Shown here piece after piece: positions 14,401 to 64,000 of a stretch of DNA of 64,000 nt; within the stretch, counting starts at the first letter, position 1; each line of letters opens with the position of its first letter. The translations under genes were made by a program, and so were the position numbers. Under the pieces are notes generated by a model. The model had not been told where the DNA came from. It did not search any database and saw only the letters and a program-made list of their open reading frames with translations. The stretch comes from Balanoglossus misakiensis (taxonomy: Eukaryota; Animalia; Hemichordata). Where the stretch lies: positions 2,188,247 to 2,252,246 of the forward strand of contig CM082594.2 of NCBI GenBank assembly GCA_040954595.2, read 5' to 3'.

Positions 14401-14994
14401 CACAGAACAATTCAGTTACTTTGGGATTCTATCCCCCAAAAGTGGAAAACACAACTTGAGCATTATATTTCAAATAACAATGATGATTCAGGGGAGATAA
14501 CACCTATTCAATTTGATATTTCACTTCCTCATACAGATTTAGAACCCATTTGTTTCAGTAAATTTTGTAGAAAAGATATTTACTTTTTATTTATCAAAAA
14601 ACTGTACAATCAGAAACATATCCACAGACTGCCAACTCCATGGCATGATCTGTTGTCATTACCAACTGATCTCAAGGCTAACTTTAATACAGTGTATTCA
14701 GAACCCCTTAGCAGACGTGACTGTGACGTTCAATGGAGAGCGATCCACGGGTGCTTGGCAACGGGACGATATTTATACTTGAGTAATCAACGAGACAATA
14801 TTGACTGTCCACACTGTGGGGAACCTGAGACACTCTTCCACCTGTTAATCGATTGCCCAGCTATACAGCCTCTTTATGAATATTTATGTGTGCTGCTAAA
14901 GAAAGTTCTGGAAAGCGACACAATTCCTCTGACCTGGTTTGCCATCGGAATGCCTATAGGACAACCTGACTGCAAATTACAAACTGTTCAGTAA
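11435..14994 (+). pseudogene. Tx1/L1 ORF2 (AP endonuclease - reverse transcriptase - CCHC), disrupted
   Basis: SCNTRG, FLQETH, GGDFN, RLDR, FSDH (APE); KSPGIDG, LDQEKAFDRV, GIRQGCALS, GYADD, KFLGV (RT); CPHCGEPETLFHLLIDC. Frameshifts near 13285 and at the poly-C run ~13815-13830. The expected PK..NWRPISLL RT block is deleted near 13003. Confidence 0.9.
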
Positions 14995-15250
14995 TATATG
15001 GTGTATTAACAATGCAATATGTGAGCTTACCACGGATAATGAACTGATTTTTAAATTATGAACACTTTGTATAAAAGGATTTATGTACATATTTTAGTGT
15101 CTCCATCGATCAGCTGGTACTGATTTTGATGATGATGTGATGTATAGTATGTTGATTGATAATTGTTAATTCGCTTGATTTGGGCTGATTTTGTTGAAAA
15201 CTTGTATGTAATTTAGTATAATATACTTTTGTACATTAAAGGTTATTTAT

Positions 15251-29830: not shown

Positions 29831-29900
29831 TTAAAGGAACAAAGTTGCTCTTTTGACCATTTTCGTTATATCGAATAACTACAACTCCGGCCCATCCTAC

Positions 29901-33417: not shown

Positions 33418-33472
33418 TTAAACCCCGGTGCGGAAAGTACCGGGGTTCGGATTAACGTGTGTTTGTATAGTT

Positions 33473-33733
33473 AGGGCCCAAGCGCTTGCTTGCGCTTGGG
33501 CCCTATTGGTTTCGTTGGGGTTTTTTACGGGCCCAAGCCAAGCCAGGCTTGGGCCCGTATTGGTTTCGTTGGAATTTTTTAGGGCCCAAGCGCATACCAG
33601 CGCTTGGGCCCTATTGGTTTCGTTGGGGTTTTTTAGGGCCCAAGCCAAGCCAGGCTTGGGCCCTATTGGTTTCGTTGGTATTTAGGGCACAAGCCAAGCA
33701 GGCTTGTGCCCTATTGGTATTACTGGGGTTTTT
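33473..33733 (+). repeat. Stack of five ~50-54-bp Helentron 5'-terminal hairpin units
   Basis: Units at 33473, 33527, 33581, 33635, 33684: agggcccaagc(gc/c)-loop-gcttgggccct-attggtttcgttgg-Tn. Confidence 0.9.
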
Positions 33734-33739
33734 CATCTT

Positions 33740-44900: not shown

Positions 44901-44964
44901 TAAATTGCCTTAAACATACTTGACCTTTTTATATGGATTTTGCATAAATATAAAATACCACCAT

Positions 44965-44976
<12 letters not shown>

Positions 44977-45044
<68 letters not shown>

Positions 45045-45045
45045 C
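44977..45045. repeat. (CA)n(TA)n microsatellite
   Basis: Direct reading. Confidence 0.95.
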
Positions 45046-45309
45046 ATACCTATATATACATACATATGCATGCATCCATCGATACATACATAGATAAATA
45101 TGAAGTAAAGGTAAGCTTGAGAAACAATATGCGGTATGATGGTTTCTCAAGCTACCCTTATATTATATTCTGATCAACTTCAGTATCGACCACTTTCTAT
45201 CGGATCAGTCGTACCACATACCTCGTACATATACCACCCCTTACACACCCCAGATTATATACAAATAGAAAATTGGAAATAATGACACTTTAACGAGCTT
45301 TAACAATTA

Positions 45310-46170
45310 ACTCTATAAGTCACTTCACGTTTTCGTTATTAAGGATCTCTTATTGATAGTCTGTATAAGTCTGTTCACATTTTCCATATTTAGGATCTCT
45401 TATTGATAATCTGTATAAGTCTGTTCGGTATTTAGGATCTCTTTTTGATAATCTGTATAAGTCTGTTCACGTTTTCGGTATTTAGGATCTCCTATTGATA
45501 ATATGTATAAGTCTGTTCACATTTTCGGTATTTAGGATCTCTTTTTGATAATCTGTATAAGTCTGTTCACATTTTCGGTATTTAGGATCTCTTTTTGATA
45601 ATCTGTATAAGTCTGTTCACATTTTCGGTATTTAGGATCTCTTTTTGATAATCTGTATAAGTCTGTTCACGTTTTCGGTATTTAGGATCTCCTATTGATA
45701 ATCTGTATAAGTCTGTTCACATTTTCGGTATTTAGGATCTCTTTTTGATAATCTGTATAAGTCTGTTCACATTTTCGGTATTTAGGATCTCTTTTTGATA
45801 ATCTGTATAAGTCTGTTCACATTTTCGGTATTTAGGATCTCTTTTTGATAATCTGTATAAGTCTGTTCACGTTTTCGGTATTTAGGATCTCTTTTTGATA
45901 ATCTGTATAAGTCTGTTCACGTTTTCGGTATTTAGGATCTCCTTTAGATAATCTGTATAAGTTTGTTCACGTTGTCGGTATTTAGGATCTCTTTTTTTGA
46001 TAATTTGTAAAAGTCTGTTCACATTTTCTGTATTTAGGATCTCCTATTGATAATCTGTATAAGTCTGTTCACATTTTTCGGTATTTAGGATCTCCTATTG
46101 ATAATCTGTATAAGTCACTTCACGTTTTCCTTATTTAGGATCTCCTATTGATAATCTGTATAAGTCAATT
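45310..46170. repeat. 50-bp minisatellite, ~17 copies
   Basis: Unit tttaggatctctttttgataatctgtataagtctgttcacattttcggta (e.g. 45531, 45581). Confidence 0.95.
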
Positions 46171-46187
46171 TGTGTTTTCCGTATTTA

Positions 46188-46610
46188 CCATAGTGTGCTA
46201 CTGACAGTATGACCGGGCAAGGAGCGCAGCGACAAGCACAAGTCGCCCGCCAAATCAGATCACTTGCCCTGTCATGTCCTACCACCAGAGGCACACGCTT
46301 TGCATTGGTGTAGCAACAAGGTCTGGTACCGTCACTCAGCTTCTTGGTTACAAACGCCATTATTGAATCGTGCACCTGAATGAGGTTTTTCCTCGTGGCA
46401 GGTTATTTCTTTGTTTTTTTCTAATATACTTATTTTATTTCAAAACACATGTCTTAATTATTAAATTTTGATGCTTTTGCTCCATGAAAGCTAATGTTTT
46501 TGGTACAACATTTATTGTCATATTTTCTATTCCTGTCGCAGACACATGGTCAATCAATGTATTAGCTTCTGTAGTTAATTTGCTTGAAATTGTTTGCAGT
46601 TTGTGTATCG
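46188..46610 (-). repeat. Direct duplicate of 47210-47630 (Helentron ORF C-terminus plus downstream sequence)
   Basis: The non-coding part is nearly identical; the part matching ...TTEANTLIDHV...SIKI* is diverged and frameshifted. Confidence 0.85.
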
Positions 46611-47485
46611 TTACGTTACCATTACCTTATCGAAAGCATTCTGATGGTAAAAGTTATTTTGCGGTATGGTAATACATGTTATGTAAAATATTGACTTAAG
46701 CTTTCTCATATTATGAGTATATATTGCAGGGAAAGTTATTGGCAGCTGTCAAAACTCTCTAGCATATAAGTACGATAAGGCAGGTGAACAAGATGCACAT
46801 ATTATTTTTACAGATCCTGAACACCCACTTCAAAATTTATTCACAAACTCCAATCATGGACATGCTACAGAATTTGATTTACCAGGAAATAATTGCTTAG
46901 AAAAACATTTTTCTCAACAGCTGTATATATTTTAAATTCAAGTTTATCCTTTCTTAGTTTCATCCAATGCTGCAGATGTGGTTTTCATCATGTTGTCTTA
47001 TTTGTGTATACATGTTCATTGTAATTAAAATGTAATATCCTAAATTTATAAATGATTAATGAGACTGAAGACCATTTTCACAACTGTTGTTGACAATAAA
47101 GTATTTGAATTGAACATTGATTTACCCTACGAGCCAGTATAAGTACATTAACCTCATGCTTGGTAGTTTTGCTTTTATCTAGTCTCACGCCCAGACCTCA
47201 TTGCTGTGCACCATAGTGTGCTACTGGCAGTATGACCGGACAAGGAGCGCAGCGACAAGCAGAAGTCGCCCGCCAAATCAGATCACTTGCCCGGCCATGT
47301 CCTACCACCAGAAGCACACGCTTTGCATTGGTGTAGCAACAAGGTCTGGTACCGTCACTCAGCTTCTTGGTTACAAACGCCATTATTGAATCGTGCACCT
47401 GAATGAGGTTTTTCCTCGTGGCAGGTTATTTCTTTGTTTTTTTTCTAATAATACTTATTTTATTTCAAAACACATGTCTTAATTA

Positions 47486-50400
47486 TTAAATTTTGATGCT
47501 TATTGCTTCATGAAAGCTGAAGTATTTTGGTACAACATTTACTGTCACATTTTCTACTTCTTTCACATACACATGATCAATCAATGTATTAGCTTCTGTA
47601 GTTGGTTCGCTTACAGTTTGTCTGAAACCATGATCTTCCATGAACTTTACAAGTGATGACCGGGTCAAGATATCTTCATTGAAATCACCCATGATCAGTT
47701 TGCCTCCAGGGTATTTTTCCATTGCTTTCACCAAACAAACCAAACTTTTTTTGAATACCTCTGCTTTGTATGATGGCGGTCTGTAAACTACAGCAACTGT
47801 AACATTGATTTTAGCGACATAAAATGAAATACATTCCAAATTACACACAGCCAAATGCAAAATTTCACAATCATTACATATTTTGCTATAGACTCCAACA
47901 CCACCCCGCTGTTGCAACTGTAGACTTGATGTATTTGTATCAAATTGATTGTAGGATTGAGATTGAGGTTGGTGATTGAATTCATATCCGCTCAATTGCA
48001 AATTACAATGTGTTCCTTTTTCAGATAACCATGTCTCGGTCAAACAAATGAAGTCTGCTTCCAAATATTCACTGTCATTGCAAATATCTTTAATATGATT
48101 GACAAGTCCCTCCACATTATGCAATACAAATGAACATGTATAATTACTCTGTTCTTTCTGAGTACACTTGAGAAGTAACTTTGGCATTGTTTCCAGGGCT
48201 TCTTGTACCTTTTCATTGCAATATATGGATGATTTGTTAAAGTCATTAATTATGAGACCATCTAATGATGTCACCCTACTCAATGCAACATATGCCTGTC
48301 CTGGTGCAAACATCTTCTTTAAACTGACAACAGCTTTTTCAACGGTTAATCCCTGTACTTTGTGAACTGTACACGCCCAAGCTAGTTTCAAAGGAAACTG
48401 CCTTCTAATACCACCATTACTTGCAACAGACATTTCCTGAGGTTCTATAGAGGTACTGTTTGCTGGAAGGTCAGATATAGTTATAGGCTTCTTTTTACGC
48501 AATCCTTGGCCAACTTTCTCATTATCAAATACAACATAAATTGCAGCAGGAAATTTTTCATTTGGTTTCACTGCAATGTGACATACTGTGCCGAATACGC
48601 CATTCACCAAACCATCAGCAACATCAATATTATGAGTCAATTGAACTCGTGCACCAACAGCTAGAGTAAGTGTCTTTGGCAAAGTTGTCCTATATACTTT
48701 GACATGATGGCCTTCCTTTTTTTCTAGCCTTCCAGTTTTAGGATTCCTACTAAAATCCTCCGCTTCAATACATACAGGGTCAGAACATTGAGAATGAAGC
48801 ATTTCAACATTACATCTATTGACCTCTGCATTGGTTGCAAAAACATGCATTGCCTCAGATGTTTCACCGGTAACACACTTTTGAAACATTGCCACGTCAC
48901 CAGGATTTAGTGTGTCCCCTTTCTTGTGAACTCTTACTCGATTTAGTGCTTCTGCAAATGCGCAGTCTTTCTGTCTCATTATTTCAGTTAACTCTATGAT
49001 ACTGAAATTATCATTCCACAGATTGATGGATTCTTGGTCTATGCATAGTGGACTTGCTTTCACAGGTGGAAGTTGATAAAAATCACCTACAGCAATAACG
49101 CATACATTTCCAAATGGTGAATAAGTCGATAATTGTTTGATTTGTTGGAGTCTTCCGTGGACATAGTACAATAACTTTTTGTCTACCATAGAAATCTCAT
49201 CTATTATCAAAATTTGGAGGTTACCAAACTTGCAACGAAGAGTATTTAGCTTTTCCTCACGCAGTGGCTGATATGGCAACTTCGAGTCAACTGCTATGGA
49301 GAATATATGATGGAGGGTTGTTCCTTGTATATTAAATGCTGCGACTCCTGTTGGTGCAGTTAAAGCAATAGAAATTCCATCAATGTCTGGCATTGCACGA
49401 GCTAGAATTCGTTTGGCTTCATGATATATGGCTTTGATTAAGTGACTCTTTCCAGTACCAGCACCACCAGTGACAAACAGATAAAAGGGTTCTGGATTCT
49501 TGCCATTGCTTTTGTCCAAACACCACTTCCTGACAGTGTAAAACACTTCTGCTTGTTTCTTGTTCAAAGATCTACACATTGCTTCAACCTCATCTTTCTT
49601 TACTGAAGAACTTGAAACTTCTACATGGCAATCATCACCTTTGGGTTTCTGAACCAAATCTGGAATGTCATCGTCATCTACGGGATCATCACCACTGCAC
49701 CTTTTACCTTCTTCAATGCATTCTGATCGTTCTAATTCACTTTCTGGACATATTTGAGCCCATGCATCTTCAAGAGGTCCATTCTCATCCAGAATTTGTT
49801 CAGCTATATCAATAGCATCAGCGTCTGTTTCAAATAATGCCTTATTGGCATCTACAATCACCTTAACCTTTTCTAAAGAAGCATAGCCACATTTCACTGC
49901 ACCAAGCCAATAAAAATCCTCATACGATTCAAATCCACTAGGTTTTAGTTGTGATTCAGTTCGGTATGGGAGAAAAAGCTGTAATATACTGCCATAATGC
50001 TTCTCTGGATTTTTGGTAACAGAAAATCTTGCATATCTAACAACAGCCCCGTCACTTTTAGATCTTTTCTGCATGTAACCAACATCATTTTTCAACTTAA
50101 CTATTGGACTGCGGCGTTTGTCATTACTCACATTTTTCATTTCTGATTTTGAAACCACTCTATATTCTGAACAAAATGTTGCAAGACACATGTTGTCGAA
50201 ACCAACCCCATTTGGTCTGTTCTTGTACCTGTCCACAATGCTATTCATCCATATCTCATCCTCGTCTAAATCATCACCTTTCATTTTCTTCTGTATTGCT
50301 TTTAATGGCAAACTCATTTTGATTTGATTTTCTCCTGTTGGAATAAACTGAACTTTTCGTGATGATTGTTTCAGTTTCAAACCACATACCCTATACACAG

Positions 50401-53400
50401 CTTCCTGGGCACTTATTTCCCTGTTGTGCAGATATACACCACCTAACTCTTTCATGGCAGACTTTGCATCCACATTTCCTTCTTTGTAAGCCTCTTTCCG
50501 TGCATGTTCCAAGAGTAAACCCATTTCTCTTTCTGCCTTAGATATGTATGACACAATGTACACAACACAGGCATAAGCATCCACAACAAACTGAATGTCC
50601 ATATTTGCATTCCAGGAACGAAGGAGGTTGGCATTATATTGATTCACCCAAACATCACTTGGCTCACGTTTTAGAACTACACTGGTCTTTTTGGCCAACA
50701 TTGCATGTGCTTGCTCAAACATCTCTTGAGATATGCTGACTGCATTGAACAAGTCATCAATAGTTTCAATTGGTTTATCTTTGTCACACAGGCATGTCCA
50801 AACTCGTTCTAAAATTTGTCTAGCCTTCATCTCACCTAATGCTGTATCATCCAACTGAGGCAAATCAATTTCACATTCATTTTTCTGTAATGTTGTGACC
50901 TTAGCATCCTTACAATTCCCATTCTCATCTGTTCCTTCTTCATCAGTATCTACAGATTTGCTTACATAAGGACGGCATAGAAAGGTTTGCTCTGAAGGTG
51001 GTCGGGGAAAGTTGAATCTACATGAAGTACCCTTTTTCTTGCAAGATTTTGAATGCCTTGAGCTGTGTTTCTGGACAGTGTTAACAATGTCGTTTAATAC
51101 CTCATCGTCCTCTACGGAAGGCATTTTACATGTTACGTATGTGTCAACAAAATCAACAACATCTTCATCAGAATCTTTGTCCACTTTAGGTGCATTTTCA
51201 ACCCAAAATAAACAGTGAGTGTGCGGTGATCCACGCTGTTGAAACTCGACTCGATAAAAATAATCTTTGATCTTCCCAATAGGACTAGCTGGTGACATAA
51301 TTACATCAGTCAAAAAACAATGAAATCTGTGATCAAACATTCTGGCTGCTGTCACAGGGTTTCGTCTCAAGATAGCACATTTCTCAGACCAATCAAGATC
51401 CTCAACATTACAAGTGTCACCTTCTTCACGAAGTATAGTCTCAACAACCTCTTTCCACCTTAAGTCAGCAGCAGAAAATGAGCAGAACCATGTTGGTATA
51501 CCTAACTGTCGGATCATTGCAAACAAATCTTTCTGTGTGGCCTGCCAATAAGGGGGAGTTCCTCTTACAGGTTTCAGAAACTTATAACCTTCATCACACT
51601 TCAAAATCTCTTTCAAAGATTGTCCATCAGTCAGAACATCAGATGTCACCTTTTTGCCACAAGCATTGGCAGTTCCTTTTCTCAAAGGGATTGACACATT
51701 TGATACAACCTGGTCCAGTTCTGAGCGATATTGGGAATAAAATATATAGTCTGTGCTTTTTGCAAACCTATTACTTGCATTCATGAGACGACTCTGCAGG
51801 TATCGTCCTATTGTTATCTTAACCTCTCGGTCATCGTAAAATGTTGGTGACCCCGTTGGGAATATCACAGGAAAGCACTTTGCCTCATTGAACTTTTCCA
51901 TCAACACTCTAACAGGTTTATTATCCTCTGCAGGAGCAACACAAGCAATATCGTCAAAGTGATAATCAAGAATATCCTGACCAATGTCAACTGGTTGAAA
52001 GCATGTGTCCATGAATATTCCATCAGTATCTTTTTCAGGCTCAACTCCATATTCTGTGTCTGATGCTACATCATTGCCCTCAGTATCTGGAGTTTTTTCT
52101 TCAGTATTTCCATTACTTTCACCATCAATTTTTTCTTCAATCTTTTCAAGAGTATTTTCCCAAGTGAGATTGAATTTCACATCATTATACCACTTGTTAT
52201 TTTTCTGTAGGTATTCCAGTGCATTTTGGATGTGTCCTTTGTTTACAAATTGATACTGATAACAACCTTTGTAACTTAATTTCCGCTTTAATTTCACCTT
52301 TATCCTCTGGTCATCCAATTCACCTCTAGGCAAAACACTTGTGGTCTTTTGTATATTAGATGGGACACATACTACAGGTCCATGAACACCATTCTGACCA
52401 CCTTTTGGCAGTGCCATCATTTTCATGAAAGGAATATGCAGTGCAATTAAATGTTGCTCTAAAGAATTCAGGCATTTTAATTCATTAGGGATTGGTTTGA
52501 CATCAAGATTATTTGCAGCAGCTTGAACAGGCATTTCTGCACGCATGAGTTTGCTATGGCATGTGTGACAAATCCATAATTTACTGGCTGCACTGCTCTT
52601 GAGGGGACAATCAACAATACATAAGTTACTGCAGTTGTGTACATAATCTTCTGTTATGCATTTCTTGGCATTCATTTCACAAAACACATTTCTGGACACA
52701 TATTTATCCATGTTACAAACAAGGACCTGCTTTCGAAAAAGTCGCCGGTGACAAACTGAACATACACAATTTGGCCCAACTGAAATCTGATTCCTAAAAT
52801 CAATTATAACATCTTCTATATTTTGCTTTTTCATTTTCTTTACTTTCCCGGCAATACGACTTCTCTCTAATACGGTCTCTTTATAATGCTGATCCTGCTT
52901 GTACCGTTCTAAACATTGCTTCCTCTGATGTCTTTGAAAATGCTCATCTTTCCGATACTTATCAACACATTGTGCTGCGCTGTGACTTTTCTTGCGTTCT
53001 CGGAACTTCTCATCTTTTTTGTACTTATCAACACATTGTGCTGCGCTCTGACTTTTCTTGCGTTCTCGGAACTTCTCATCTTTTTTGTACTTATCAACAC
53101 ATTGTGCTGCGCTCTGACTCTTCTTGCGTTCTCGGAACTTCTCATCTTTTTTGTACTTATCAACACATTGTGCAGCGCTCTGACTCTTCTTGCCTTCTCG
53201 GAACTTCTTATCTTTTTTGTACTTGTCAACACATTGTGCTGCACTCCGTCTCTTCTTGTGTTCTCTGTATAGTGGGTTATTTTTATATTTTGCCACACAC
53301 TGTTCTGAACAAAGAGTTTTCTGTGCTTCACGAAATACTAAATCACAATTGTATCGTCCGGTCAGTCTACGTTTTTTCTCTTCTCTATATAGTACATCTT

Positions 53401-54826
53401 CGTGGTACCTCTTTCTACTGTCCAATTTTATGTTGCTTCTATATTCAGAATTAGTCTGATAACGTTCACATTGTTTAGCTGCTTTAGAGCTCTTCACAAT
53501 ACTGGATACATTTAATTCATTCAATTTAGTTTTTTGAATTTCATACTTTCCACGCCTGAGTTTCTTTTTCAGCCGTTCACCCTTGCCTCTACTACATTTC
53601 TTACCTCTTACTGATTCAAGACACTGAAGTTCATCATGTGTTGCAAATACTTCTAAATGGACGGCTTTTTTCAAACCATTCTGTGTTGAGCTCCTATCGT
53701 CCGTCACATCCATGCACTCTCCAGTCACAATCTCAACAGGGACAACTTCATTGCAATCAATGTGTGTACAATGACAGGTTTCCAACTGTGGTGTCTTCAC
53801 ACACTCAACTACTTCATAATGGTTTCTATTACGATGGTTCAGGTATATACCTACACCTCTATCAACATTATTTTTATTGATTATATTACAAGAATGTTTC
53901 CACCAACTATCGAAACTGTACACGAAAATATTCACATTGAAGAGACTAGTAGTGGCAAGGATTTCAGTTTCTGTAGCCCATGTTCCTAGATGATCCATTC
54001 TGGACTTCTCAATATAATCAGCAACTGATGTATATCCATCTAACCTTACCCAGCCTGAATATACTTCCTCATTGGCTTTCAAGTGATTCACAATGGCCGT
54101 TCGAATAACTCCGTGATTTCGCTCAGTCCCACTTAAACAATATGACAAAGACCTAAAAAAACAGTTACCATCACCAATTATTGACTTGTAATTACATGGG
54201 TCTCCAATTGTAACACTTCCGACTTTATTTAAAATATCAATTTTATTTTTATCTACAATATCAAATTTGCAACACAGCTGTTCACATACATCAAAAGTTA
54301 GTGGAGAGAATGAATAAACACTGTCCTCTGTTCCACTACCAATATATAGGTCGTCCAATGAATCATTGTCAAGACTATGTTGTTGCAGAATTTCATTACT
54401 TCCTTCAGTCTTATCAACACTTTGATTTTCAGTCTCAAATATCTCATTGTTGACTTTTGTACTTTCATTTTGTCTGTCACTTTTTCTGATTTTATCTATA
54501 TTCCTGTTTTTAGAGAGGGCAGGCCCCTCTTTGTATTCATTTCTATTCCTGTTTTTAGAGAGGGCAGGCCCCTCTTTGAATTCATTTCTATTCCTGTTTT
54601 TAGAGAGGGCAGGCCCCTCTTTGAATTCATTTCTATTCCTGTTTTTAGAGAGGGCAGGCCCCTCTTTGAATTCATTTCTATTCCTGTTTTTAGAGAGGGC
54701 AGGCCCCTCTTTGTGCTCTATAGCTATCCTGTTTTTCAAGAGGACAGGATCCTCAGACACAACAGCATCTTCATTCTTCTGACTCCTCTTCTTCCTCCAG
54801 TATCTACTGCGTGGCATCTGGAACAA
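47486..54826 (-). CDS. Helentron (Helitron2) transposase: OTU-like protease - Cys-rich region - HUH Rep - Pif1 helicase - AP endonuclease; first ATG at 54817
   Basis: Uninterrupted 2446-codon ORF. OTU GDGNCFFRSLS...WATETEI...HYE. Rep motifs WFCSFSAAD, VEFQQRGSPHTH, YIVSYISKAE. Pif1 motifs GGAGTGKS, IIDEISMV, GDFYQLPPV, EIMRQ, RQFPLKLAWACTVHKVQG, GQAYVALSR. APE motifs HNVEG, LTETW, YRPP, GDFNED, LIDHVY. Confidence 0.96.
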   Translation of the reverse strand: MFQMPRSRYWRKKRSQKNEDAVVSEDPVLLKNRIAIEHKEGPALSKNRNRNEFKEGPALSKNRNRNEFKEGPALSKNRNRNEFKEGPALSKNRNRNEYKEGPALSKNRNIDKIRKSDRQNESTKVNNEIFETENQSVDKTEGSNEILQQHSLDNDSLDDLYIGSGTEDSVYSFSPLTFDVCEQLCCKFDIVDKNKIDILNKVGSVTIGDPCNYKSIIGDGNCFFRSLSYCLSGTERNHGVIRTAIVNHLKANEEVYSGWVRLDGYTSVADYIEKSRMDHLGTWATETEILATTSLFNVNIFVYSFDSWWKHSCNIINKNNVDRGVGIYLNHRNRNHYEVVECVKTPQLETCHCTHIDCNEVVPVEIVTGECMDVTDDRSSTQNGLKKAVHLEVFATHDELQCLESVRGKKCSRGKGERLKKKLRRGKYEIQKTKLNELNVSSIVKSSKAAKQCERYQTNSEYRSNIKLDSRKRYHEDVLYREEKKRRLTGRYNCDLVFREAQKTLCSEQCVAKYKNNPLYREHKKRRSAAQCVDKYKKDKKFREGKKSQSAAQCVDKYKKDEKFRERKKSQSAAQCVDKYKKDEKFRERKKSQSAAQCVDKYKKDEKFRERKKSHSAAQCVDKYRKDEHFQRHQRKQCLERYKQDQHYKETVLERSRIAGKVKKMKKQNIEDVIIDFRNQISVGPNCVCSVCHRRLFRKQVLVCNMDKYVSRNVFCEMNAKKCITEDYVHNCSNLCIVDCPLKSSAASKLWICHTCHSKLMRAEMPVQAAANNLDVKPIPNELKCLNSLEQHLIALHIPFMKMMALPKGGQNGVHGPVVCVPSNIQKTTSVLPRGELDDQRIKVKLKRKLSYKGCYQYQFVNKGHIQNALEYLQKNNKWYNDVKFNLTWENTLEKIEEKIDGESNGNTEEKTPDTEGNDVASDTEYGVEPEKDTDGIFMDTCFQPVDIGQDILDYHFDDIACVAPAEDNKPVRVLMEKFNEAKCFPVIFPTGSPTFYDDREVKITIGRYLQSRLMNASNRFAKSTDYIFYSQYRSELDQVVSNVSIPLRKGTANACGKKVTSDVLTDGQSLKEILKCDEGYKFLKPVRGTPPYWQATQKDLFAMIRQLGIPTWFCSFSAADLRWKEVVETILREEGDTCNVEDLDWSEKCAILRRNPVTAARMFDHRFHCFLTDVIMSPASPIGKIKDYFYRVEFQQRGSPHTHCLFWVENAPKVDKDSDEDVVDFVDTYVTCKMPSVEDDEVLNDIVNTVQKHSSRHSKSCKKKGTSCRFNFPRPPSEQTFLCRPYVSKSVDTDEEGTDENGNCKDAKVTTLQKNECEIDLPQLDDTALGEMKARQILERVWTCLCDKDKPIETIDDLFNAVSISQEMFEQAHAMLAKKTSVVLKREPSDVWVNQYNANLLRSWNANMDIQFVVDAYACVVYIVSYISKAEREMGLLLEHARKEAYKEGNVDAKSAMKELGGVYLHNREISAQEAVYRVCGLKLKQSSRKVQFIPTGENQIKMSLPLKAIQKKMKGDDLDEDEIWMNSIVDRYKNRPNGVGFDNMCLATFCSEYRVVSKSEMKNVSNDKRRSPIVKLKNDVGYMQKRSKSDGAVVRYARFSVTKNPEKHYGSILQLFLPYRTESQLKPSGFESYEDFYWLGAVKCGYASLEKVKVIVDANKALFETDADAIDIAEQILDENGPLEDAWAQICPESELERSECIEEGKRCSGDDPVDDDDIPDLVQKPKGDDCHVEVSSSSVKKDEVEAMCRSLNKKQAEVFYTVRKWCLDKSNGKNPEPFYLFVTGGAGTGKSHLIKAIYHEAKRILARAMPDIDGISIALTAPTGVAAFNIQGTTLHHIFSIAVDSKLPYQPLREEKLNTLRCKFGNLQILIIDEISMVDKKLLYYVHGRLQQIKQLSTYSPFGNVCVIAVGDFYQLPPVKASPLCIDQESINLWNDNFSIIELTEIMRQKDCAFAEALNRVRVHKKGDTLNPGDVAMFQKCVTGETSEAMHVFATNAEVNRCNVEMLHSQCSDPVCIEAEDFSRNPKTGRLEKKEGHHVKVYRTTLPKTLTLAVGARVQLTHNIDVADGLVNGVFGTVCHIAVKPNEKFPAAIYVVFDNEKVGQGLRKKKPITISDLPANSTSIEPQEMSVASNGGIRRQFPLKLAWACTVHKVQGLTVEKAVVSLKKMFAPGQAYVALSRVTSLDGLIINDFNKSSIYCNEKVQEALETMPKLLLKCTQKEQSNYTCSFVLHNVEGLVNHIKDICNDSEYLEADFICLTETWLSEKGTHCNLQLSGYEFNHQPQSQSYNQFDTNTSSLQLQQRGGVGVYSKICNDCEILHLAVCNLECISFYVAKINVTVAVVYRPPSYKAEVFKKSLVCLVKAMEKYPGGKLIMGDFNEDILTRSSLVKFMEDHGFRQTVSEPTTEANTLIDHVYVKEVENVTVNVVPKYFSFHEAISIKI
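52940..53310 (-). repeat. In-frame 66-bp (22-aa) coding repeat KKSQSAAQCVDKYKKDEKFRER, ~5-6 copies
   Basis: 66-bp period (e.g. acacattgtg at 53031 and 53097). Confidence 0.92.
54495..54750 (-). repeat. In-frame 45-bp (15-aa) coding repeat KEGPALSKNRNRNEF, 5 copies plus a degenerate one
   Basis: Direct reading of DNA and translation. Confidence 0.95.
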
Positions 54827-55199
54827 AGCAAATATACTGTCTAGTTAGGTTTTTACTATCCTTTCACCACCAGACTTCAGATAACCTTCTCATCAAATCA
54901 CATCACTAGTGATTATAACCAGTAAAAAGTAGTGGAACTTTTAACAGACAGAAGTGATTTATAGAAACTTAGTCCGAACAAAGTTGTAATTCAACAGCAA
55001 CACATAATACACACATATCCCCATGCCTGTATACAAATAGACACATATACACACAAAGTATCACAGACACACTTTTTTTCTGCTGGAAAACAGGATAAGG
55101 CTTAAATCCTGACCCCTGCATGACCTAACATTCTGGCATTCACATTAGAATGTGCTCAGACAAATCTCAGATCTGAGTGAAATTTTCTTTAAAAATCAT

Positions 55200-55765
55200 T
55201 TCCACTATTTAGCAATATCAAGTCCAAGTACGATAGGCATACATGTATGAATTTGCACAGACATAAACAAATACACGGACACCCCAACATCCACCGTGTA
55301 CAGACCTGACCCTGAATGACCCGACATTTTCCCATTTACGTTGCAATGTACTCAGACAAATGTGAATAAAATTTCACTTCAAAACCATTTCTACCAGTTA
55401 GCAATATCAAGTCCAAGTACAATGATAGGCATACATGTATGAATTTGCACAGACATAAACAAATACACGGACACCCCAACATCCACCGTGTACAACCAAA
55501 TAAGGCTACAGACCTGACCCTGAATGACCCGACATTTTCCCATTTACGTTGCAATGTACTCAGACAAATGTGAATAAAATTTCACTTCAAAACCATTTCT
55601 ACCAGTTAGCAATATCAAGTCCAAGTACGATAGGCATACATGTATGAATTTGCACAGACATAAACAAATACACGGACACCCCAACATCCACTGTGTACAA
55701 CCAAATAAGGCGTCAGACCTGACCCTGAATGACCCGACATTTTCTCATTTTCATTATGTACTCAT
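55200..55765. repeat. ~200-bp tandem repeat, 3 copies, upstream of the Helentron ORF
   Basis: agcaatatcaagtccaagtac at ~55211, 55401 and 55608. Confidence 0.9.
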
Positions 55766-55929
55766 ACAAATCACAAACGATTGTTATAGACCTGATTTAC
55801 ACTTAACAATTTAATATACAAGTTCAATAACAAGGCAGGGATATCAAGAAACATACATCATACCAATGTTTTATTGAAGCCACTGTTGTAAGAAATGGCA
55901 CTATCCAATGGTCTTAACACCACATAGCA

Positions 55930-56971
55930 CAGGGCTCGAAATTAACGGTGGTCTTGCGTCCAAAGACCACCACATTTTCATTTTGGACCACCACATTTGA
56001 AAAATTGGTGGTCCATTTGGACCACCAATTATAATTCGTTCGTCTTCAGTGCTTAGATAGTTCGGTAAGAGGAATGATTTAGCGATAGTTCACTTCCGTA
56101 TATTTCAGGACCGCAATATCCCTAACGCTCCTCCCAGCTGTCACTTATCAACCCGCATGACCATATACGTGAACAAAGACCCGTTTCATGTAACCCATAT
56201 ACAAGTAAGCAATGGAACTATATTTTCAGGGTAGCCTTGAAACTACTGTGACGTTTAGCAATACTATTGGGCATCACCATTGGAAACGCAGTGTGTCTAT
56301 GTACATTATGCTAACGCAAGTCCGTCAATGGAATAACTGTAATGTCAATAGAGTTCTTTTGACATGCAGAGTCGCGGTTTATGGGGTCGCGTTTGATATT
56401 TTATGTTTTACGTGCAGTGCACGCAAAGAGCCAAATAAAATTGCGTGAAATTGTATTTGAATTACGTGCAACAAAATAGCAATAGACAAGCAGGCTTTCA
56501 TAAACATCGACTTGAATGAGTTCTCCCTTCATGTCTAGACGGCCCAACACAAAAAAATCATTTACAATGTAGCGAATAAAGTACATAAACATCATGAATG
56601 AAAGAGATCGTGTCGCAAGTGGTTCCCCCCCCCCCCCCAATACGCATTAGTACAGACAAGGTAGCGAATTCGTGTGTTATATCATCAAGGAAAATGACCC
56701 AGAAGCCCTAATTGCTTTGTTATATCTAATGGCTTCTGCGTGCATAAATTATAGCGCCGACACGTCCTAAGTTTGTGGCCTAGGTTACCGCACGTACATC
56801 ACTGTGCGTCCTGCTATGTGCATACAAGCGCGCGTACGCGTACATGTAGACTTTAAGTTACGACTTACATGTTTCATTGGTGTGACCACCAAATTTAGTT
56901 TTGGACCACCACATTTTTATTTGTGGTGGTCCACTTGGACCACCACATTAAAAATTTAATTTCGAGCCCTG
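55930..56971. mobile_element. Non-autonomous hAT-like (hAT5-type, 5-bp TSD) element
   Basis: TIRs cagggctcgaaatta / taatttcgagccctg. TSD TAGCA at 55925-55929 and 56972-56976. Subterminal ggaccacc repeats at both ends. Confidence 0.85.
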
Positions 56972-58864
56972 TAGCACAATGATTGTTCTGCACATACAAG
57001 TCCCTTCCTTTCTGATGTATTCAATAAACACCATTTCTATGAACTATTACAATATGTTTTTCTTCCGTCACCCCTGAATAACAAATTCAAAGAAATGGGC
57101 TAGTGCTTTTACATGTTAACAGACGGTGCATGGAAGTGGACAATCATCCTATCTGATATTAAACCACAGTGTGACTGATAGTAGAACTAAGCAATTCCTC
57201 CGCAAATGATTTAAAAGGCTAATTCACATTTGACACAATGCACACCTGAGTGTGTTAATCTATGATACTATGCACTGTTGTGCACCAACACTCACCTTGA
57301 AAACTCTTTGGTAGCCAAAATCTGTCAAGAAAATAATAAATAATAATTAATAACTAATTAACTATAAATGTATATTTAAACTAGTACATGAAAATATACA
57401 ATTGCCTACAAACAGGATAACAATTAACAATGAATTCACTGCCAAGCTTGTGATATTCAGAAATTCATATCTTGATCACAGTTTCCATACAAATGGCACA
57501 TACAGGTTACCACAGATTGATAACATAACTTGTCTTGCCCACAACATAGTTTCATGGCATCAAAATATGTTTACAAGTCAACTGTTCTTTTCATGCTCCT
57601 GCCAGATTCCATTGTCTATGTTTTGGCACACCTGTCACCACCAGAAAGCATACACACTAAAGACAGTGGTCACCAAAAATATTTGGCCAATTCTACGCTT
57701 GTCCCCACATTTTTACAAACAACTAAAACGTCAAATAATCCAGCAATGTTTCTGTTTTGTACTCACACAGATTGTTCAATATTTGAAGCAAAATTCCTTT
57801 CAATTATCAAAAAACAAATCGATTTAACTGATAAAAATTACAATGATAACCCCTGGGCTTTTGATCACATAAACATACAATATTCACATAAATAAATGCA
57901 GTATTTACGTATTTGGAAAACCAATCCATAAATATCACACAGTTAATTTTTTTTTACAAATACACATCCCAGAAATAATACTTTACCAACGCTTGTACGT
58001 AACATACGCATGACACAGCGATCGCCCGAATTCAACACTTCCGGTCACGAGATTCGCTTGCCTAAACCCTTTCCAGTCTAAATAATCATTTGTACATTGA
58101 CTGCAAAAAGAAGCTTATCTCGTAATTTCAACTTGAATGGAACTCACTAGAAACTCTGATTTACCCAGCCTCTAATTGTTCTATTTAATCCAGCAAACTC
58201 CACCATCTCAACATATATAACATTTGCCAAAACATGCATGCTTACGGTACCATGGATTCTTTACATACAGTAAGCAATCTCGACACGTTACGATAGCCGC
58301 CATATTGGAATTCGCTCGAGACGAAAATACAAAACATCTTACAAAACTGCCATCGTCTCACAAACAAACAAAATCACACTACCATTGGTTAAACAACAAC
58401 TTCATAACCAACATCACCAAGTATTATACGTTCAAACCACCGATTCTCTCATTCGTACCACATTTAAAAACCGCATGTAATTGTATACGTGTTACTCACC
58501 GGATTCAGGTCAACGCCTCTGCTGGAGTCAGATTCGTTTTCGGATTCAAGTGCGTAGGATGAAGTTGCTTTCAGATTCATACCCCATAGACGTGTTGGGT
58601 TAACACTCCGTTTATACAGCTCAATATATTGGTATATCTATACTACATCCTCTTCACAGTTAACGAATGTAATATACAGATCTGTTCACTTAAATAAAGA
58701 TATGTTTATTGCCAAACAAATACCTTTGTCAAAACTTTCACTGATTCAGATGAAAATTTTCAACTATTTACAACCAATCCACACATCACTTGTGACTAAT
58801 TAACCAATCACATAATGTGTCCATTCTAACTTTGTATTTCGCCCTCAACTACTGCATGTGTAAT

Positions 58865-61800
58865 GATGCATGTGGATTAGTGTGTAATCATAATAGTTTG
58901 TAGTCTACCTTCTGCCCATCATTTTGTAATTGGACATTATGCTGTCCATGTTCCAGTTTTTTTGCCACCATTTTTACTAAGTTTGCCAAGAACATTGTGA
59001 TTGGTCGAAGATTATGGCGGCCATATTGGATTTTCGAAAAACCATAGTAAAACTCCAACAATCTTCTCCAGAACTGGCGATAACTGAGTCGCAAGATTCG
59101 GGGAGTATGGTCATTACACTGATGTCTATCAGGTTTGCAAAGAGCATTGTGATTGGTCGAAAAATATGGCGGCCATATTGGATTTTGTAAAAAGCAGTGA
59201 AAAATTGAAATTCCTTTTTCTAGTCTAAACATTGATAGCATACAAATTCTTTTTGTGGATATGAGTCGTCATATGACTAGAATATGTTGCAAATTTTTTG
59301 GCAATTTTCACATGACCTTTGACCTACTTTTTTAAGAACCTGCATATATGCATATATAGCTCATACTACCTGTTCTAAATGTACCAGAGTTCTGATTTTT
59401 GTGCACATTGGTATCACCCCTGCCAGGACCTACCCCAAATATTTTGGTAATTTTGGCAATGACCTTTGACCTACTTTTGACACATCGTTTTTTCTGCATA
59501 TCTAATTCCAGGCTAACCTATAGGGCTATCATTTTGGTTTTTGATGTATGTGGATTTGTATGTGATCAAAAAATTTCGCTACTTTTCATGACCCCTTTGA
59601 CCTCTGGTGACCTCATTAAATATGTGCATACCTAATTACAGATGAACCAATAGACCTAGAGGTTTGGTTTCTGTTGGACATTTACCAGTATTGGGTCAAA
59701 AAATTTTGCCCAAATGTTGGGTGACCTCGGGTGACCTTTGACCTACTTTTGCATATCTCGACATCCACAGCAGATACAGCCTTGGCGTTTGGAGGTATGG
59801 GGCCATAATGAAAAGACAAAGTTTTGGGTCACCTGTGACACCTGCTTAACTCATTATTTATGTGCATACCTAATTCCGGGCTAACTAAAAGGGCTAGAGG
59901 TCTGGTTTTTGTTGGACGTGGACCACTATGGGTCAAAATTTTCTGCCCAAATTGTGGGTGAACTCTGGGTGACCTTTGACTTACTTAACACTATATCAAC
60001 ACCAAACATAGATATAACCTTGATATTTCATGGGATAAAACACAGCATTATGTTTCTACTCATTAATTATGTGCATATCTACTAATCTGATCAGATAATA
60101 GAGCTTGGGCCCGGACAATGCTGCTTGCAGCTTTAATCTTTCTTTCTTTCTTTCTTTTTTCTTGTGTCAATTCTTCGGCCAACTAAATCTCTGAAACTAC
60201 TGCAGGTACACTGTTCAAACTTGCTACAGTGGTCAATGTCTATGAGTAGATGTGCAGTGACTTGTGAATACTTAATTAGTCACGTGACCTGGCGGCCATA
60301 TTGGATTTTCTGAAAAAATGCAAATCTCAGATCTCAGAAACTACAAGTCAGATCGACTTCAAATTTGGCATGCAGGTAGACTACCTTCTACCCATCATTT
60401 TTGTAATTGGATATTTTGCTGTAAATGTTGCAGTTTTTTTGCTACAATTTTTTTTCTGAAATCTGGCTTAAATTTCAAAAATCTTCTTCTCCAGAACTGG
60501 TGATAACCGAGACACGGGGTTTGGGGTATGTGGTCACCTAACTGATGTCTATCAAGTTTGCGAAGATCATTGTGATTGGTCGAAGATTATGGCGGCCATA
60601 TTGGATTTTCGAAAAACCATAGTTAAACTCCAAAAATCTTCTTCTCCAGAACGGGCGATGACTGAGTCGCAAGATTCGGGGAGTATGGTCACTACACTGA
60701 TGTCTATCAAGTTTGCAAAGAGCATTGTGATTGGTCGAAGATTATGGCGGCCATATTGGATTTTGTAAAAAGCAGTGAAAAATTGAAATTCCTTTTTCTA
60801 GTCTAAAAATTGATAGCATGCAAATTCTTTTTATGGATATCAATCGTCATGTGACTAAAATATGTTACAATTTTTTGGCGATTTTTCACATGACCTTTGA
60901 CCTACATATCACACGTTATTATTTCAGCATATCGAATTCCAGGCTAACCTATAGGGCTAGACTTTTGGTTTTTGATGCACGTGGATTAGTGTGTGATCAA
61001 AATATTTTGCTACTTTTCATGACCCCTTTGACCTCTGCTGACCTCATTAATTATGTACATAGCTAATTACAGGGGAACCAATAGAGGTAGAGGTTTGGTT
61101 TTTGTTGGACACAGACCAGTATGGGATCAACATTTTTTGCCCAAATGTTGCGTGACCTCTGGTGACCTTTGACCTACTTTCGCATATCTCAGCATCCAGA
61201 GCAGATACAGCCATGGCATTTGGTAGGATGGGACCAAAATGTAAAGCCACATTTTTGGGTCACCTGTGACACCTGCTGACCTCATTAAATATGCACATAC
61301 CTAATTACAGGCGAACCAATAGAGCTAGAGTTTTGGTTTTTGCAGGACATGGACCAGTATGGGTCAAAAAAAATTGCCCAAATGTTGGGTGACCTCAGGT
61401 GACCTTTGACCTACTTCACCCTACTTAAGCAGCAAAAATACACACGTCCTTGTTATGTCATGAGATAATACATCCGATAGAAAATTCTGTTTCTTCTCAT
61501 TCATACTGTGCATATATAATTCAAGATCAGCGTTTGGGCCCGACAATGCTGCTCGCAGCTTTAATTAGGGCCCAAGCGCAAGCAAGCGCTTGGGCCCTAT
61601 TGGTTTCGTCTGGGTTTTTCTGTCTTTAGGGCCCAAGCGCTTGCTTGCGCTTGGGCCCTATTGGTTTCGTTGGGGTTTTTCTTTCTTTCTTTCTTTTTTC
61701 TTGTGTCAATTCTTCGGCCAACTAAATCTCTGAAACTACTGCAGGTACACTTCTCAAACTTGCTACAGTGGTCAAGGTCTATGAGTAGATGTGCAGTGAC

Positions 61801-64000
61801 TTGTGAATACTTAATTAGTCACGTGACCTGGCGGCCATATTGGATTTTCTGAAAAAATGCAAATCTCAGATCTCAGAAACTACAAGTCAGATCGACTTCA
61901 GATTTGGTGTGCAGGTAGTGTACCTTCTGCCCATCATTTTTGTAATTGGATATTTTGCTGTCAATGTTGCAGTTTTTTTTGCTACAGTGGTTTTACTGAA
62001 ATCTGGTCAAAATTTCAAAAATCTTCTTCTCCAGAACCGGTGATAACCGAGACACGAGGTTTGGGGTATGTGGTCACCTAACTGATGTCTATCAAGTTTG
62101 CGAAGATCATTGTGATTAGTCGAAGATTATGGCGGCCATATTGGATTTACGAAAAACCATAGTTAAACTCCAAAAATCTTCTTCTCCAGAACGGGCGATG
62201 ACTGAGTTGCAAGATTCGGGGAGTATGGTCACTACACTGATGTCTATCAAGTTTGCAAAGAGCATTGTGATTGGTCGAAGATTATGGCGGCCATATTGGA
62301 TTTTGTAAAAAGCAGTGAAAATTTGAAATTCCTTTTTCTAGTCTAAAATTTGATAGCATACAAATTGTTTTTATGGATATCAATCGTCATGTGACTAAAA
62401 TATGTTACAATTTTTTTGTGATTTTTCACATGACCTTTGACCTACTTATCACGCGTTATTATTTCTGCATATCTAATTCCAGGCTAACCTATAGGGCTAG
62501 ACGTTTGGTTTTTGATGAATGTGAATTAGTGTGTGATCAAAATATTTTGCTACTTTTCATGACCCCTTTGACCTCAGCTGACCTCATTAATTATGTACAT
62601 AGCTAATTACAGGCGAACCAATAGAGCTAGAGGTTTTGTTTTTGTTGGACATGGACCAGTATGGGATCAAATTTTTTTGCCCAAATGTTGGGTGACCTCT
62701 GGTGACCTTTGACCTACTTTCTCATATCTCAGCATCCAGAGCAGATACAGCCATTGCATTTGGTAGGATGGGACCAAAATGTAAAGCCAAATTTTTGGGT
62801 CACCTGTGACACCTGCTGACCTCATTAAATATGCACATACCTAATTACAGGTGAACCAATAGAGCTAGAGTTTTGGTTTTTATTGGACATGGACCAGTAT
62901 GGGTAAAAAAAAAATTGCCCAAATGTTGGGTGACCTCAGGTGACCTTTGACCTACTTCACCCTATTTCAGCAGCAAAAATACCCACATCCTTGTTATGTC
63001 ATGAGATAATACATCCGATAGAAAATTCTGTTTCTTCTAATTCATACTGTGCATATATAATTCAAGATCAGCGCTTGGGCCCGACAATGCTGCTCGCAGC
63101 TTTAATTCTTTCTTTATTCTTGTGTCATTTCTTTGTCGCTCTAGATCTCAGACACCGCTGCAGGTACACTTCTCAAACTTGCTACAGTGGTCAAGGTCAA
63201 TGGGTAGTCGTGCATTGAACTCTTGAATTTTTAATTAGTCACGTGACATGGCGGCCATATTGGATTTTCTGAAAAAATGCAAATCTCAGATCTCAGAAAC
63301 TACAAGTCAGATCGACTTCAAATTTGGTGTGCAGGTAGTCTACCTTTTACCCATCATTTTTGTAATTGGATATTTTGCTGTAAATGTTGCAGTTTTTTTG
63401 CTACAATTTTTTTTCTGAAATCTGGCTTAAATTTCAAAAATCTTCTTCTCCAGAACCGGTGATAACCGAGTGACGCGGTTTGGGGTATGTGGTCACCTAA
63501 CTGATGTCTATCAAGTTTGATAAGAAGCATTGTGATTGGTCGAAGATTATGGCGGCCATATTGGATTTTCGAAAAACCATAGTAAAACTGCAGAAATCTT
63601 CTTCTCCAGAACGGGCGATAACTGAGTCGCAAGATTCAGGGAGTATGGTCACAACACTGATGTCTATCAAGTTTGCAAAGAGCATTGTGATTGGTTGAAG
63701 ATTATGGCGGCCATATTTGATTTTGTAAAAAGCAGTGAAAAATTGAAATTCCTTTTCCTAGTCTAAAAATTGACAGCATACAAATTCTTTTCATGGATAT
63801 CAATCATCATATGACTAAAATATGTTACAAATTTTTGGCGATTTTTCACATGACCTTTGACCTACTTATCATGCGTTATTATTTCTGCATATCTAATTCC
63901 AGGCTAACCTATAGGGCTAGACTTTTGGTTTTTGATGCATGTGGATTAGTGTGTGATCAAAATATTTTGCTACTTTTCATGACCCCTTTGACCTCTGCTG
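58865..64000 (+). mobile_element. Right array of Helentron-type ~1.4-kb bodies, with two stacked 5' hairpins at 61567 and 61628
   Basis: Same unit and orientation as 34900-40500. 3' termini at ~60102-60138, 61530-61566 and 63071-63106. Runs off the window end. Confidence 0.88.

What the first reader, a model, noticed from the sequence alone, without database searches (positions are those of the whole stretch)
61567..61659. Flip-flop loop and compensatory stems in the Helentron terminal hairpin (parvovirus-like hairpin transfer?)
Seen: the same 13-bp stem agggcccaagcgc/gcgcttgggccct encloses loop AAGCAA at 61580-61585 but its exact reverse complement TTGCTT at 61641-61646 and 33486-33491. Other heads change both arms together: acggg../..cccgt at 33527, gggcAcaagc/gcttgTgccc at 33684, and aagcc/ggctt versus aagcgc/gcgctt. 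Known: flip/flop terminal isomers arise from HUH-Rep terminal resolution in parvoviruses/AAV and from template switching at palindromic circovirus origins. Inference: this end may be copied through a fold-back or strand-switch step during transposition, which would invert the loop and homogenise the arms. I do not recall this being described for Helitron2/Helentrons.
Basis: partly seen in the sequence, partly recalled or inferred. Interest (0 to 1): 0.85.

Follow-up and report, generated by a model that had tools for sequence, protein, structure and literature searches.

The report
Flipped loop in Helentron front hairpin
The hairpin at the front end of a rolling-circle transposon carries its six-base loop in both orientations, but the flipped form is a minority that likely arose in one rare DNA-copying slip and was then multiplied, rather than from a parvovirus-like flip at every jump.

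Summary
Observation confirmed. One perfect 14-bp stem holds loop AAGCAA (61580-61585) or its reverse complement TTGCTT (61641-61646, 33486-33491), and all 7 heads in the window have perfect stems. The stem is the 5' subTIR+IR hairpin of a Helitron2/Helentron family; an intact 2452-aa OTU-Rep-Hel-EN frame lies inside the array. The flipped head is not an assembly error: short-read contigs hold it exactly, at about 50 times a reference contig's depth. Inverted (T-ending) loops make up roughly 3-17% of laid depth (worst case 25%), against the 50% that parvovirus-type flip-flop predicts, and the common loop ATACCA shows little inverted partner. In the best bracket pairing of the nested array, both flipped heads sit on sister bodies (weak support, n=2). 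Most likely one template-switch loop inversion, a known mutation at short inverted repeats, was amplified as a subfamily. Compensatory Helitron2 hairpin changes and stacked 5' ends are already published; three searches found no paper on loop inversion in Helentrons. Still open: the genome-wide AAGCAA:TTGCTT ratio, and whether transposition raises the switch rate. This scan noted the nesting in seven other windows of this genome, and loop flips in bacterial repeats.

The parts
61566..61599 (+). Head Hx: 5' subTIR + nested IR hairpin, 14-bp stem, loop AAGCAA (flip) at 61580-61585
61627..61660 (+). Head Hy: same stem, loop TTGCTT (flop) at 61641-61646
33472..33505 (+). Head H1: same stem, loop TTGCTT (flop) at 33486-33491; head and tail identical to Hy; held exactly by a 44-nt short-read contig (depth 5857 in X1, 2936 in X2)
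33526..33559 (+). Head H2: C/G pair inserted in both arms, AAGCC/GGCTT inner stem, loop AAGCCA
33580..33613 (+). Head H3: GCGC stem, loop ATACCA (the consensus of the loose ends in X1 and of the one X4 contig)
33634..33665 (+). Head H4: AAGCC/GGCTT stem, loop AAGCCA
33683..33713 (+). Head H5: paired CAC/GTG change, loop AAGCA; directly joined to body B5
33734..34860 (+). Body B5 (divergent subtype, about 67-71% to the full-length other bodies) with 3' subTIR and 3' stem-loop
34862..37743 (+). Bodies B4 and B3 (95.4% alike; 3' end GAGCTTGGGCCC type); one is surplus to the head count
37744..39153 (+). Body B2 (3' end GCGCTTGGGCCC type); pairs with H3 in the best bracket pairing (inferred)
39154..60137 (+). 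Probable autonomous copy (inferred): 5' part B1 (39154-about 41750, interrupted at 40513-41416), internal region with the RepHel frame, 3' part Bq (about 58860-60137) with 3' subTIR and stem-loop
47486..54844 (-). Stop-free 2452-aa frame: OTU, DUF6570, Helitron_like_N/Rep (HUH motif at residue 1200, two-tyrosine motif at 1429), PIF1 helicase, endonuclease; reverse to the head-to-tail direction
60138..61565 (+). Body Ba (GCGC type, one change in its 3' subTIR); pairs with flop head H1 in the best pairing (inferred); shares start variants with By
61681..63106 (+). Body By, directly joined to flop head Hy
63107..64000 (+). Body Bx (cut by the window end); pairs with flip head Hx (inferred)
30101..32138 (-). 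Sister-family element; head has a single-arm mismatch; an empty paralogous site near 41188-41215 shows insertion in a T run without target duplication

Best explanation
The loop of this Helentron's front-end hairpin occurs in both orientations, and the flipped form likely arose in one rare polymerase template switch between the perfect 14-bp arms and was then multiplied as a minority subfamily by ordinary rolling-circle transposition. Shown: the stem, both loop states, the Helitron2/Helentron anatomy, the many-copy flipped head, and its minority share of laid depth. Inferred: AAGCAA (one substitution from the AAGCCA loop of two other heads) is the ancestral state and TTGCTT the one-step inversion. 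Also inferred: the paired arm changes come from the same arm-copying switches, or from stepwise change filtered by the need for a paired hairpin to transpose, and each was then fixed as a subfamily marker. Untested: whether the switch happened during host replication or during transposition.
For: (1) Heads with a T just before the right arm, which any inverted A-starting loop has, are about 3-17% of laid contig depth in X1 and X2, and 23-25% in the worst case. The depth starting at 33491 is only 0.86 of the flop contig in both runs, which leaves little room for inverted ATACCA. (2) The loose-end consensus before the right arm is ATACCA in X1 (5 contigs, agreement 0.96) and X4 (1 contig), and ends in AAGCCA in X2 (5 contigs, agreement 0.72). 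(3) The two flop heads are identical through the tail. When one of the twin bodies B3/B4 is treated as surplus, head type and 3' subTIR type agree in 6 of 6 pairs, against 3 of 6 for the strict inside-out pairing (counted by eye). Both flop heads then sit on Ba and By, which alone of 7 bodies share a T-run variant at the body start and group at 84 ultrafast-bootstrap. (4) Spacer inversion and arm homogenisation by template switching are documented for arms over 9 bp in yeast genes (PMC8604942, passages) and in rRNA hairpins (PMC8794818, passages). (5) Compensatory changes in Helitron2 termini are in PMC3627910 (passage).
Against: The genome-wide AAGCAA:TTGCTT ratio could not be read, so a balanced pair inside one young lineage is not excluded. 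The depth figures are sums of overlapping contigs, which the tool says are no copy number; my bound assumes at most 6 overlapping contigs per path. X1 and X2 are one sample and may be the window's own source. Ba+By support is weak: 84 is below the usual 95, the first-200-nt tree does not group them (47 for B2+Ba), and the 6 shared columns include one 4-base A run, against 2 and 3 for the other pairings. Bodies are chimeric. The pairing needs one surplus body; under strict pairing the two flop heads would sit on different body types. 0 single-arm mismatches in 192 arm bases against 2.5-3.8 expected (P about 0.02-0.09) is borderline and leans slightly towards active arm correction. About 2240 (X1) and 920 (X2) depth units align through the loop on other contigs whose loop letters I could not see.
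Confidence: 0.65

Rival explanations
1. Recurrent, low-rate strand switching tied to transposition: RepHel unwinding, or a cruciform at the circle junction, exposes the head as folded single strand, so arms are copied from each other and the loop sometimes inverts, as in the circovirus melting-pot origin.
For: 7 of 7 heads have perfect stems despite three different paired changes, one an indel pair; P of no single-arm mismatch is about 0.02-0.09. Joined 3'-5' ends exist in Helitron2 (PMC5148889, passages), and a 3' end joined to a head is seen at 61560-61566 and in an X4 contig. Template switching at an HUH-Rep palindromic origin is described for porcine circovirus (PMC2690592, passages).
Against: Only one distinct inversion is seen in the window, and the depth left for inverted ATACCA is small. 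One X2 contig (depth 61) shows unpaired arms (table 5c). The sister-family head and the four heads in L004 and L007 keep asymmetric arms, all with the intact subTIR on the left (two of the four were selected by the pattern). In circoviruses the nick site is in the loop, whereas here the element end lies outside the hairpin (inferred from the T-run junctions).
Confidence: 0.2
2. Parvovirus-like hairpin transfer (terminal resolution) at each transposition round, which inverts the loop as a rule.
For: The exact flip/flop pair in one stem; the transposase carries an HUH Rep domain and a helicase.
Against: It predicts near-equal orientations for every loop (AAV steady state, PMC5948225 passage); observed at most 25% and likely under 17%. 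5 of 7 window loops start and end with A. The hairpin is subterminal, and Helitron2 likely moves as a joined-end circle, not as a linear genome with hairpin telomeres.
Confidence: 0.04
3. No inversion event: TTGCTT was built by slippage or duplication from arm sequence (GCGCTTG is a direct repeat across the flop loop), and the paired arm changes are stepwise point or indel mutations kept only by selection for transposable hairpins.
For: Both loops are made of arm-like letters. A loop-less head exists in X1 (table 5c, depth 245), which shows slippage between the short direct repeats. With many copies, two-step compensation is feasible for substitutions (inference).
Against: It needs several steps to reach the exact reverse complement (chance 0.0015-0.005), whereas one switch suffices; paired indels are hard to get stepwise.
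Confidence: 0.09
4. Assembly or library artefact: 31-mers inside the 34-bp hairpin are shared by flip and flop.
For: The hairpin is longer than a 31-mer, so graph assemblers can confuse the two states (inference). The flip AAGCAA plus tail was not seen by itself in the contig tables.
Against: A 44-nt contig links TTGCTT to the tail beyond the hairpin with 0 differences at depth 5857 and 2936. A-ending loops linked to the same tail dominate.
Confidence: 0.02

Closest known systems
Helitron2 / Helentron / HINE (DINE-1-like) 5' subTIR+IR hairpin (Bao and Jurka 2013 PMC3627910; Thomas et al. 2014 PMC4067079; oyster Cg_HINE PMC7492417; passages read)
   Same: 5' hairpin using the subTIR, 3' subTIR plus stem-loop, microsatellite behind the head, T-run insertion, OTU-Rep-Hel-EN protein, reversed ORF in some members, compensatory changes between related elements
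   Different: An inverted loop subfamily is not mentioned in the passages read or found by three searches
Short inverted-repeat template switching: spacer inversion and arm homogenisation (PMC8604942, PMC8794818 passages; PMC5941160, PMC5453318 search listing only)
   Same: Perfect arms over 9 bp, short spacer turned end for end with arms unchanged, both arms changing together
   Different: Here the product sits in a mobile element and was amplified to many copies; whether the rate is higher than in host DNA is untested
AAV / parvovirus ITR flip-flop by terminal resolution (PMC5948225 passage)
   Same: Two reverse-complement isomers inside one palindrome; HUH Rep plus helicase
   Different: Equal steady-state ratios there, a minority state here; linear hairpin telomere there, subterminal hairpin in a likely circular intermediate here
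Porcine circovirus melting-pot origin (PMC2690592 passages)
   Same: HUH-Rep rolling circle with template switching across a palindromic stem
   Different: The nick site lies in the loop there; here the element end lies outside the hairpin, and no switch during transposition is shown
FoHeli multiple 5' termini by self-insertion (PMC5148889, sections 10 and 16 read whole)
   Same: Stacked short 5' ends, nested copies, reversed ORF
   Different: Here both heads and bodies survive as a bracket-like array

Membership tests
Helitron2/Helentron (HLE2) | 5' hairpin that uses the 5' subTIR, a few T from the end | tested here: met
   definition
Helitron2/Helentron (HLE2) | Subterminal 3' inverted repeat followed by a short palindrome and T end | tested here: met
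   7 such ends; GCTTGGGCCC in 6 of 7, one changed. The short 3' palindrome is visible in the letters, but it was not the lowest-energy fold in the one end folded
Helitron2/Helentron (HLE2) | RepHel with HUH and two-tyrosine motifs, DUF6570; EN domain for Helentron | tested here: met
   66-69% identity over the searched region to abalone and acorn-worm proteins. That the frame belongs to these ends is inferred from body-like DNA on both sides
Helitron2/Helentron (HLE2) | Insertion into a T run without target-site duplication | tested here: inconclusive
   Shown by an empty site for the sister element 30101-32138 only; for this family inferred from the nested junctions
Parvovirus-type terminal resolution (flip-flop) | Both isomers near equal frequency for each terminal sequence | tested here: not met
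   Inverted loops about 3-17% of laid depth, at most 25%; rests on contig depths, and the AAGCAA:TTGCTT pair itself was not resolved
Parvovirus-type terminal resolution (flip-flop) | Linear genome with hairpin telomere and a Rep nick opposite the hairpin | not testable with these tools
   Nick site unknown; Helitron2 joined ends reported in PMC5148889
Template-switch spacer inversion at short inverted repeats | Exact reverse complement of the spacer inside unchanged perfect arms longer than 9 bp | tested here: met
   criterion
Template-switch spacer inversion at short inverted repeats | Event placed on a single branch of a tree of copies | tested here: inconclusive
   Ba+By clade at 84, not recovered in the first 200 nt; depends on the inferred head-body pairing
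Circovirus melting-pot switching | Palindrome repair during Rep-driven replication | not testable with these tools
   needs a marked-hairpin transposition assay

The most novel reading that the evidence does not exclude
The Helentron front hairpin is a self-correcting end: during RepHel-driven rolling-circle copying it melts like the circovirus origin, so mismatched arms are repaired from each other and the loop inverts at a rate far above that of host hairpins; AAGCAA and TTGCTT would be a live flip/flop pair in a young lineage, and the loop a natural reporter of the Helitron2 copying step.
Probability: 0.2. Interest if true: 0.65.

Novelty: new member of a known kind. Interest (0 to 1): 0.27.

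Why it matters
As most likely read, it is an ordinary hairpin mutation caught in a transposon and amplified. It still says something useful: the loop letters and orientation likely do not matter for mobility, while pairing and the subTIR do, and the flipped loop is a handy subfamily marker for dating the nested arrays. If inversions turned out to be recurrent and tied to transposition, they would give a sequence read-out of how Helitron2/Helentron ends are copied, for which I found only models in the passages read.

Tried and rejected
Laying contigs on 61622-61800 gave no cover over the head, which the tool skipped as repeat. Run X3 laid nothing and X4 laid one contig. The head pattern found 0 stretches in viral contigs and 7 in metagenome contigs. 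Of the 7, L004 and L007 look like Helentron heads, two stacked each; L003 and L005 are one unrelated perfect hairpin; L001, L002 and L006 look like chance. The perfect-stem pattern gave 24 stretches in prokaryote genomes, none sharing body DNA with the window; they were dropped. Supplements: the subTIR table of PMC4067079 has no loops, and four arm motifs found nothing in its 10 text-held files. For PMC7492417 I read part 1 of each of two files; the spreadsheet lists central arrays only, so loop orientation in oyster could not be tested. Figures of those papers were not visible and may show head variants. Two left-arm variants in table 5c (depth 52 and 22) cannot be classed as paired or unpaired, because their right-arm letters are not given. 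Contigs that align through the loop with 4-5 differences cannot be assigned a loop. A look-up of earlier findings by sequence returned nothing. Strict inside-out head-body pairing was considered and ranked lower (3 of 6 against 6 of 6 agreements), not excluded.

Full report
Observation. A perfect 14-bp stem encloses AAGCAA at 61580-61585, TTGCTT at 61641-61646 and 33486-33491, and ATACCA at 33594-33599. Three more heads at 33526, 33634 and 33683 carry loops AAGCCA, AAGCCA and AAGCA, with changes made in both arms: a C/G pair inserted, an AAGCC/GGCTT inner stem, and CAC/GTG. All 7 of 7 heads have perfect stems, and searches for the left arm with up to two mismatches and for every GGGCCC found no further head of this family. 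An exact reverse-complement pair by chance has probability 0.0015 among the four GCGC heads. Flip and flop fold equally well as DNA, about -19 kcal/mol on either strand.

What the element is. Each head is followed by a 20-base tail and a TCTT microsatellite. Seven 3' ends carry the inverted copy of the left arm, a short palindrome and a T end. This is the Helitron2/HINE plan: a 5' hairpin using the subTIR, and a subterminal 3' repeat with a hairpin (PMC3627910, passages; PMC4067079, passages; PMC7492417, passages). A stop-free 2452-aa frame at 47486-54844 (-) has OTU, DUF6570, Helitron Rep, PIF1 and endonuclease domains, with HUH and two-tyrosine motifs. DUF6570 is a marker of this group (PMC11417382, passages). 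The best hits over residues 760-1300 are 66-69% identical proteins of abalone and an acorn worm. Body-like DNA lies on both sides of the frame, so it likely belongs to an autonomous copy of about 21 kb whose ORF runs against the head-to-tail direction, as reported for some Helitron2 elements. An empty paralogous site for a sister element shows insertion in a T run without duplication.

The array. Five heads stack at 33472-33733 and are followed by six bodies; then come two heads and two bodies at 61566-64000. This is what insertion into the T tract behind an earlier head gives. Multiple 5' ends by self-insertion were proposed for Fusarium Helitron2 (PMC5148889, sections 10 and 16 read whole). 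Two of seven metagenome hits (L004, L007) also show two stacked heads. I had noted the nesting before looking; unchecked notes of this scan report it in seven other windows of the same genome. One body is surplus. If one of the twins B3/B4 (95.4% alike) is set aside, heads with the GCGC stem pair with 3' ends that carry GCGC, and the others with ends that do not, in 6 of 6 pairs. Strict pairing gives 3 of 6 (my count). In the better pairing both flop heads sit on bodies Ba and By. These alone of seven share a T-run variant at the body start, and they group at 84 ultrafast-bootstrap over the whole body, but not in a tree of the first 200 bases (47 for B2+Ba). Shared derived columns are 6, four of them one A run, against 2 and 3 for the other pairings. 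That fits a single inversion but is weak, and the bodies are chimeric.

Population evidence. No genome is held, so I laid public short-read contigs. The first try gave no cover over the head. The second, on the flop loop, right arm and tail (33480-33527), laid 174 contigs from X1, 115 from X2, 0 from X3 and 1 from X4. X1-X3 are one sample and may be the window's source. A 44-nt contig holds TTGCTT joined to the tail with no difference, at depth 5857 (X1) and 2936 (X2). That is about 50 times a long contig shared by both runs (111.6 and 58.4), which I take as a near single-locus yardstick. The flop is therefore real and many-copy. Summed depth is 14,000-17,000 over the loop and 305,000 at the first bases of the right arm in X1 (7,000-8,000 and 189,000 in X2). 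Every A-starting loop seen here would end in T if inverted. Allowing one to six overlapping contigs per path, such T-ending heads are 3-17% of the depth, and 23-25% in the worst case. Depth starting at the last loop base is 0.86 of the flop contig in both runs, so the flop's own continuation can account for it and little is left for inverted ATACCA. The loose-end consensus before the right arm is ATACCA in X1 and X4 and ends in AAGCCA in X2. Limits: the tool warns that summed depth is no copy number, contigs drop rare variants, and the share of AAGCAA itself cannot be read.

Arms. Zero single-arm mismatches in 192 arm bases compares with 2.5-3.8 expected from private body differences or from the 3' subTIR (1 change in 70 bases); P is about 0.02-0.09. 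That is borderline, and the expectation is likely too high because private differences include unseen lineage steps. Unpaired arms do exist: the sister head at 32106-32138, one X2 contig of depth 61, and the four heads of L004 and L007, which all keep the intact subTIR on the left (two were selected by the pattern). A loop-less head at depth 245 shows slippage in this hairpin.

Mechanism. Parvovirus terminal resolution drives flip and flop towards equal ratios (PMC5948225, passage); the data here do not show that. Replication template switching between short inverted repeats both homogenises arms and inverts spacers, seen in yeast only for arms over 9 bp and mostly in already perfect repeats (PMC8604942, passages), and in rRNA hairpins (PMC8794818, passages). 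A family with very many perfect 14-bp hairpins would be expected to suffer such an event now and then (inference). A flipped loop that leaves the fold unchanged would then transpose normally and found a subfamily. I put this at 0.65. A low-rate switch during RepHel copying, like the circovirus melting-pot origin (PMC2690592, passages), gives the same products and cannot be told apart here (0.2). Routine hairpin transfer is at 0.04, stepwise or slippage origin at 0.09, and artefact at 0.02.

Novelty. Compensatory changes in Helitron2 termini were reported in 2013 and stacked 5' ends in 2016. Searches for Helitron with flip, flop and hairpin (1 paper, on Polinton-like viruses, listing only), Helentron with template switch (0), and at least three of Helitron, hairpin, loop inversion, microinversion and spacer inversion (0) found no report of a loop inversion in these elements. 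The library lacks most subscription papers, and figures were not visible. It is a new instance of a known mutation type in a known element end: interest 0.27, rising to about 0.65 if recurrent inversion tied to transposition were shown.

Noticed in passing
window 33472-64000: Bracket-like nest of Helentron copies: five stacked heads, six bodies (one likely the 21-kb autonomous copy with a reversed ORF), then two more heads; head type matches 3' subTIR type when one twin body is set aside.
   Followed up: partly
window 40513-41416 versus 29898-32795: The insert inside B1 is the empty version of the DNA that flanks the sister Helentron at 30101-32138; it contains a short inverted-repeat element at about 41254-41409.
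   Followed up: partly
window 55947-56947: About 1-kb stretch inside the probable autonomous copy, bounded by clusters of GGACCACCA palindromes and hairpins; looks like a separate inverted-repeat element.
   Followed up: no
window 13151-17347: Tandem 2.1-kb duplication at 99.8% identity inside a LINE-like region with endonuclease and reverse-transcriptase matches; could be recent or an assembly effect.
   Followed up: no
window 9666-10802 (-): 378-aa frame with an NB-ARC match, next to repeats that carry a GGGAGGGG hairpin (9127, 9362, 20567, 23080).
   Followed up: no
run X1, table 5c: A loop-less head variant (arms joined across the GCGC repeat) at depth 245 between two right arms.
   Followed up: no
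L003:984-1019 and L005 (minus strand): The same perfect 16-bp hairpin with a GGGCCCGAGC arm occurs in two metagenome contigs with identical flanks; no link to the window's element was found.
   Followed up: partly
window 33421-33447: A 9-bp hairpin just upstream of the first head, perhaps the 3' end of another element.
   Followed up: no
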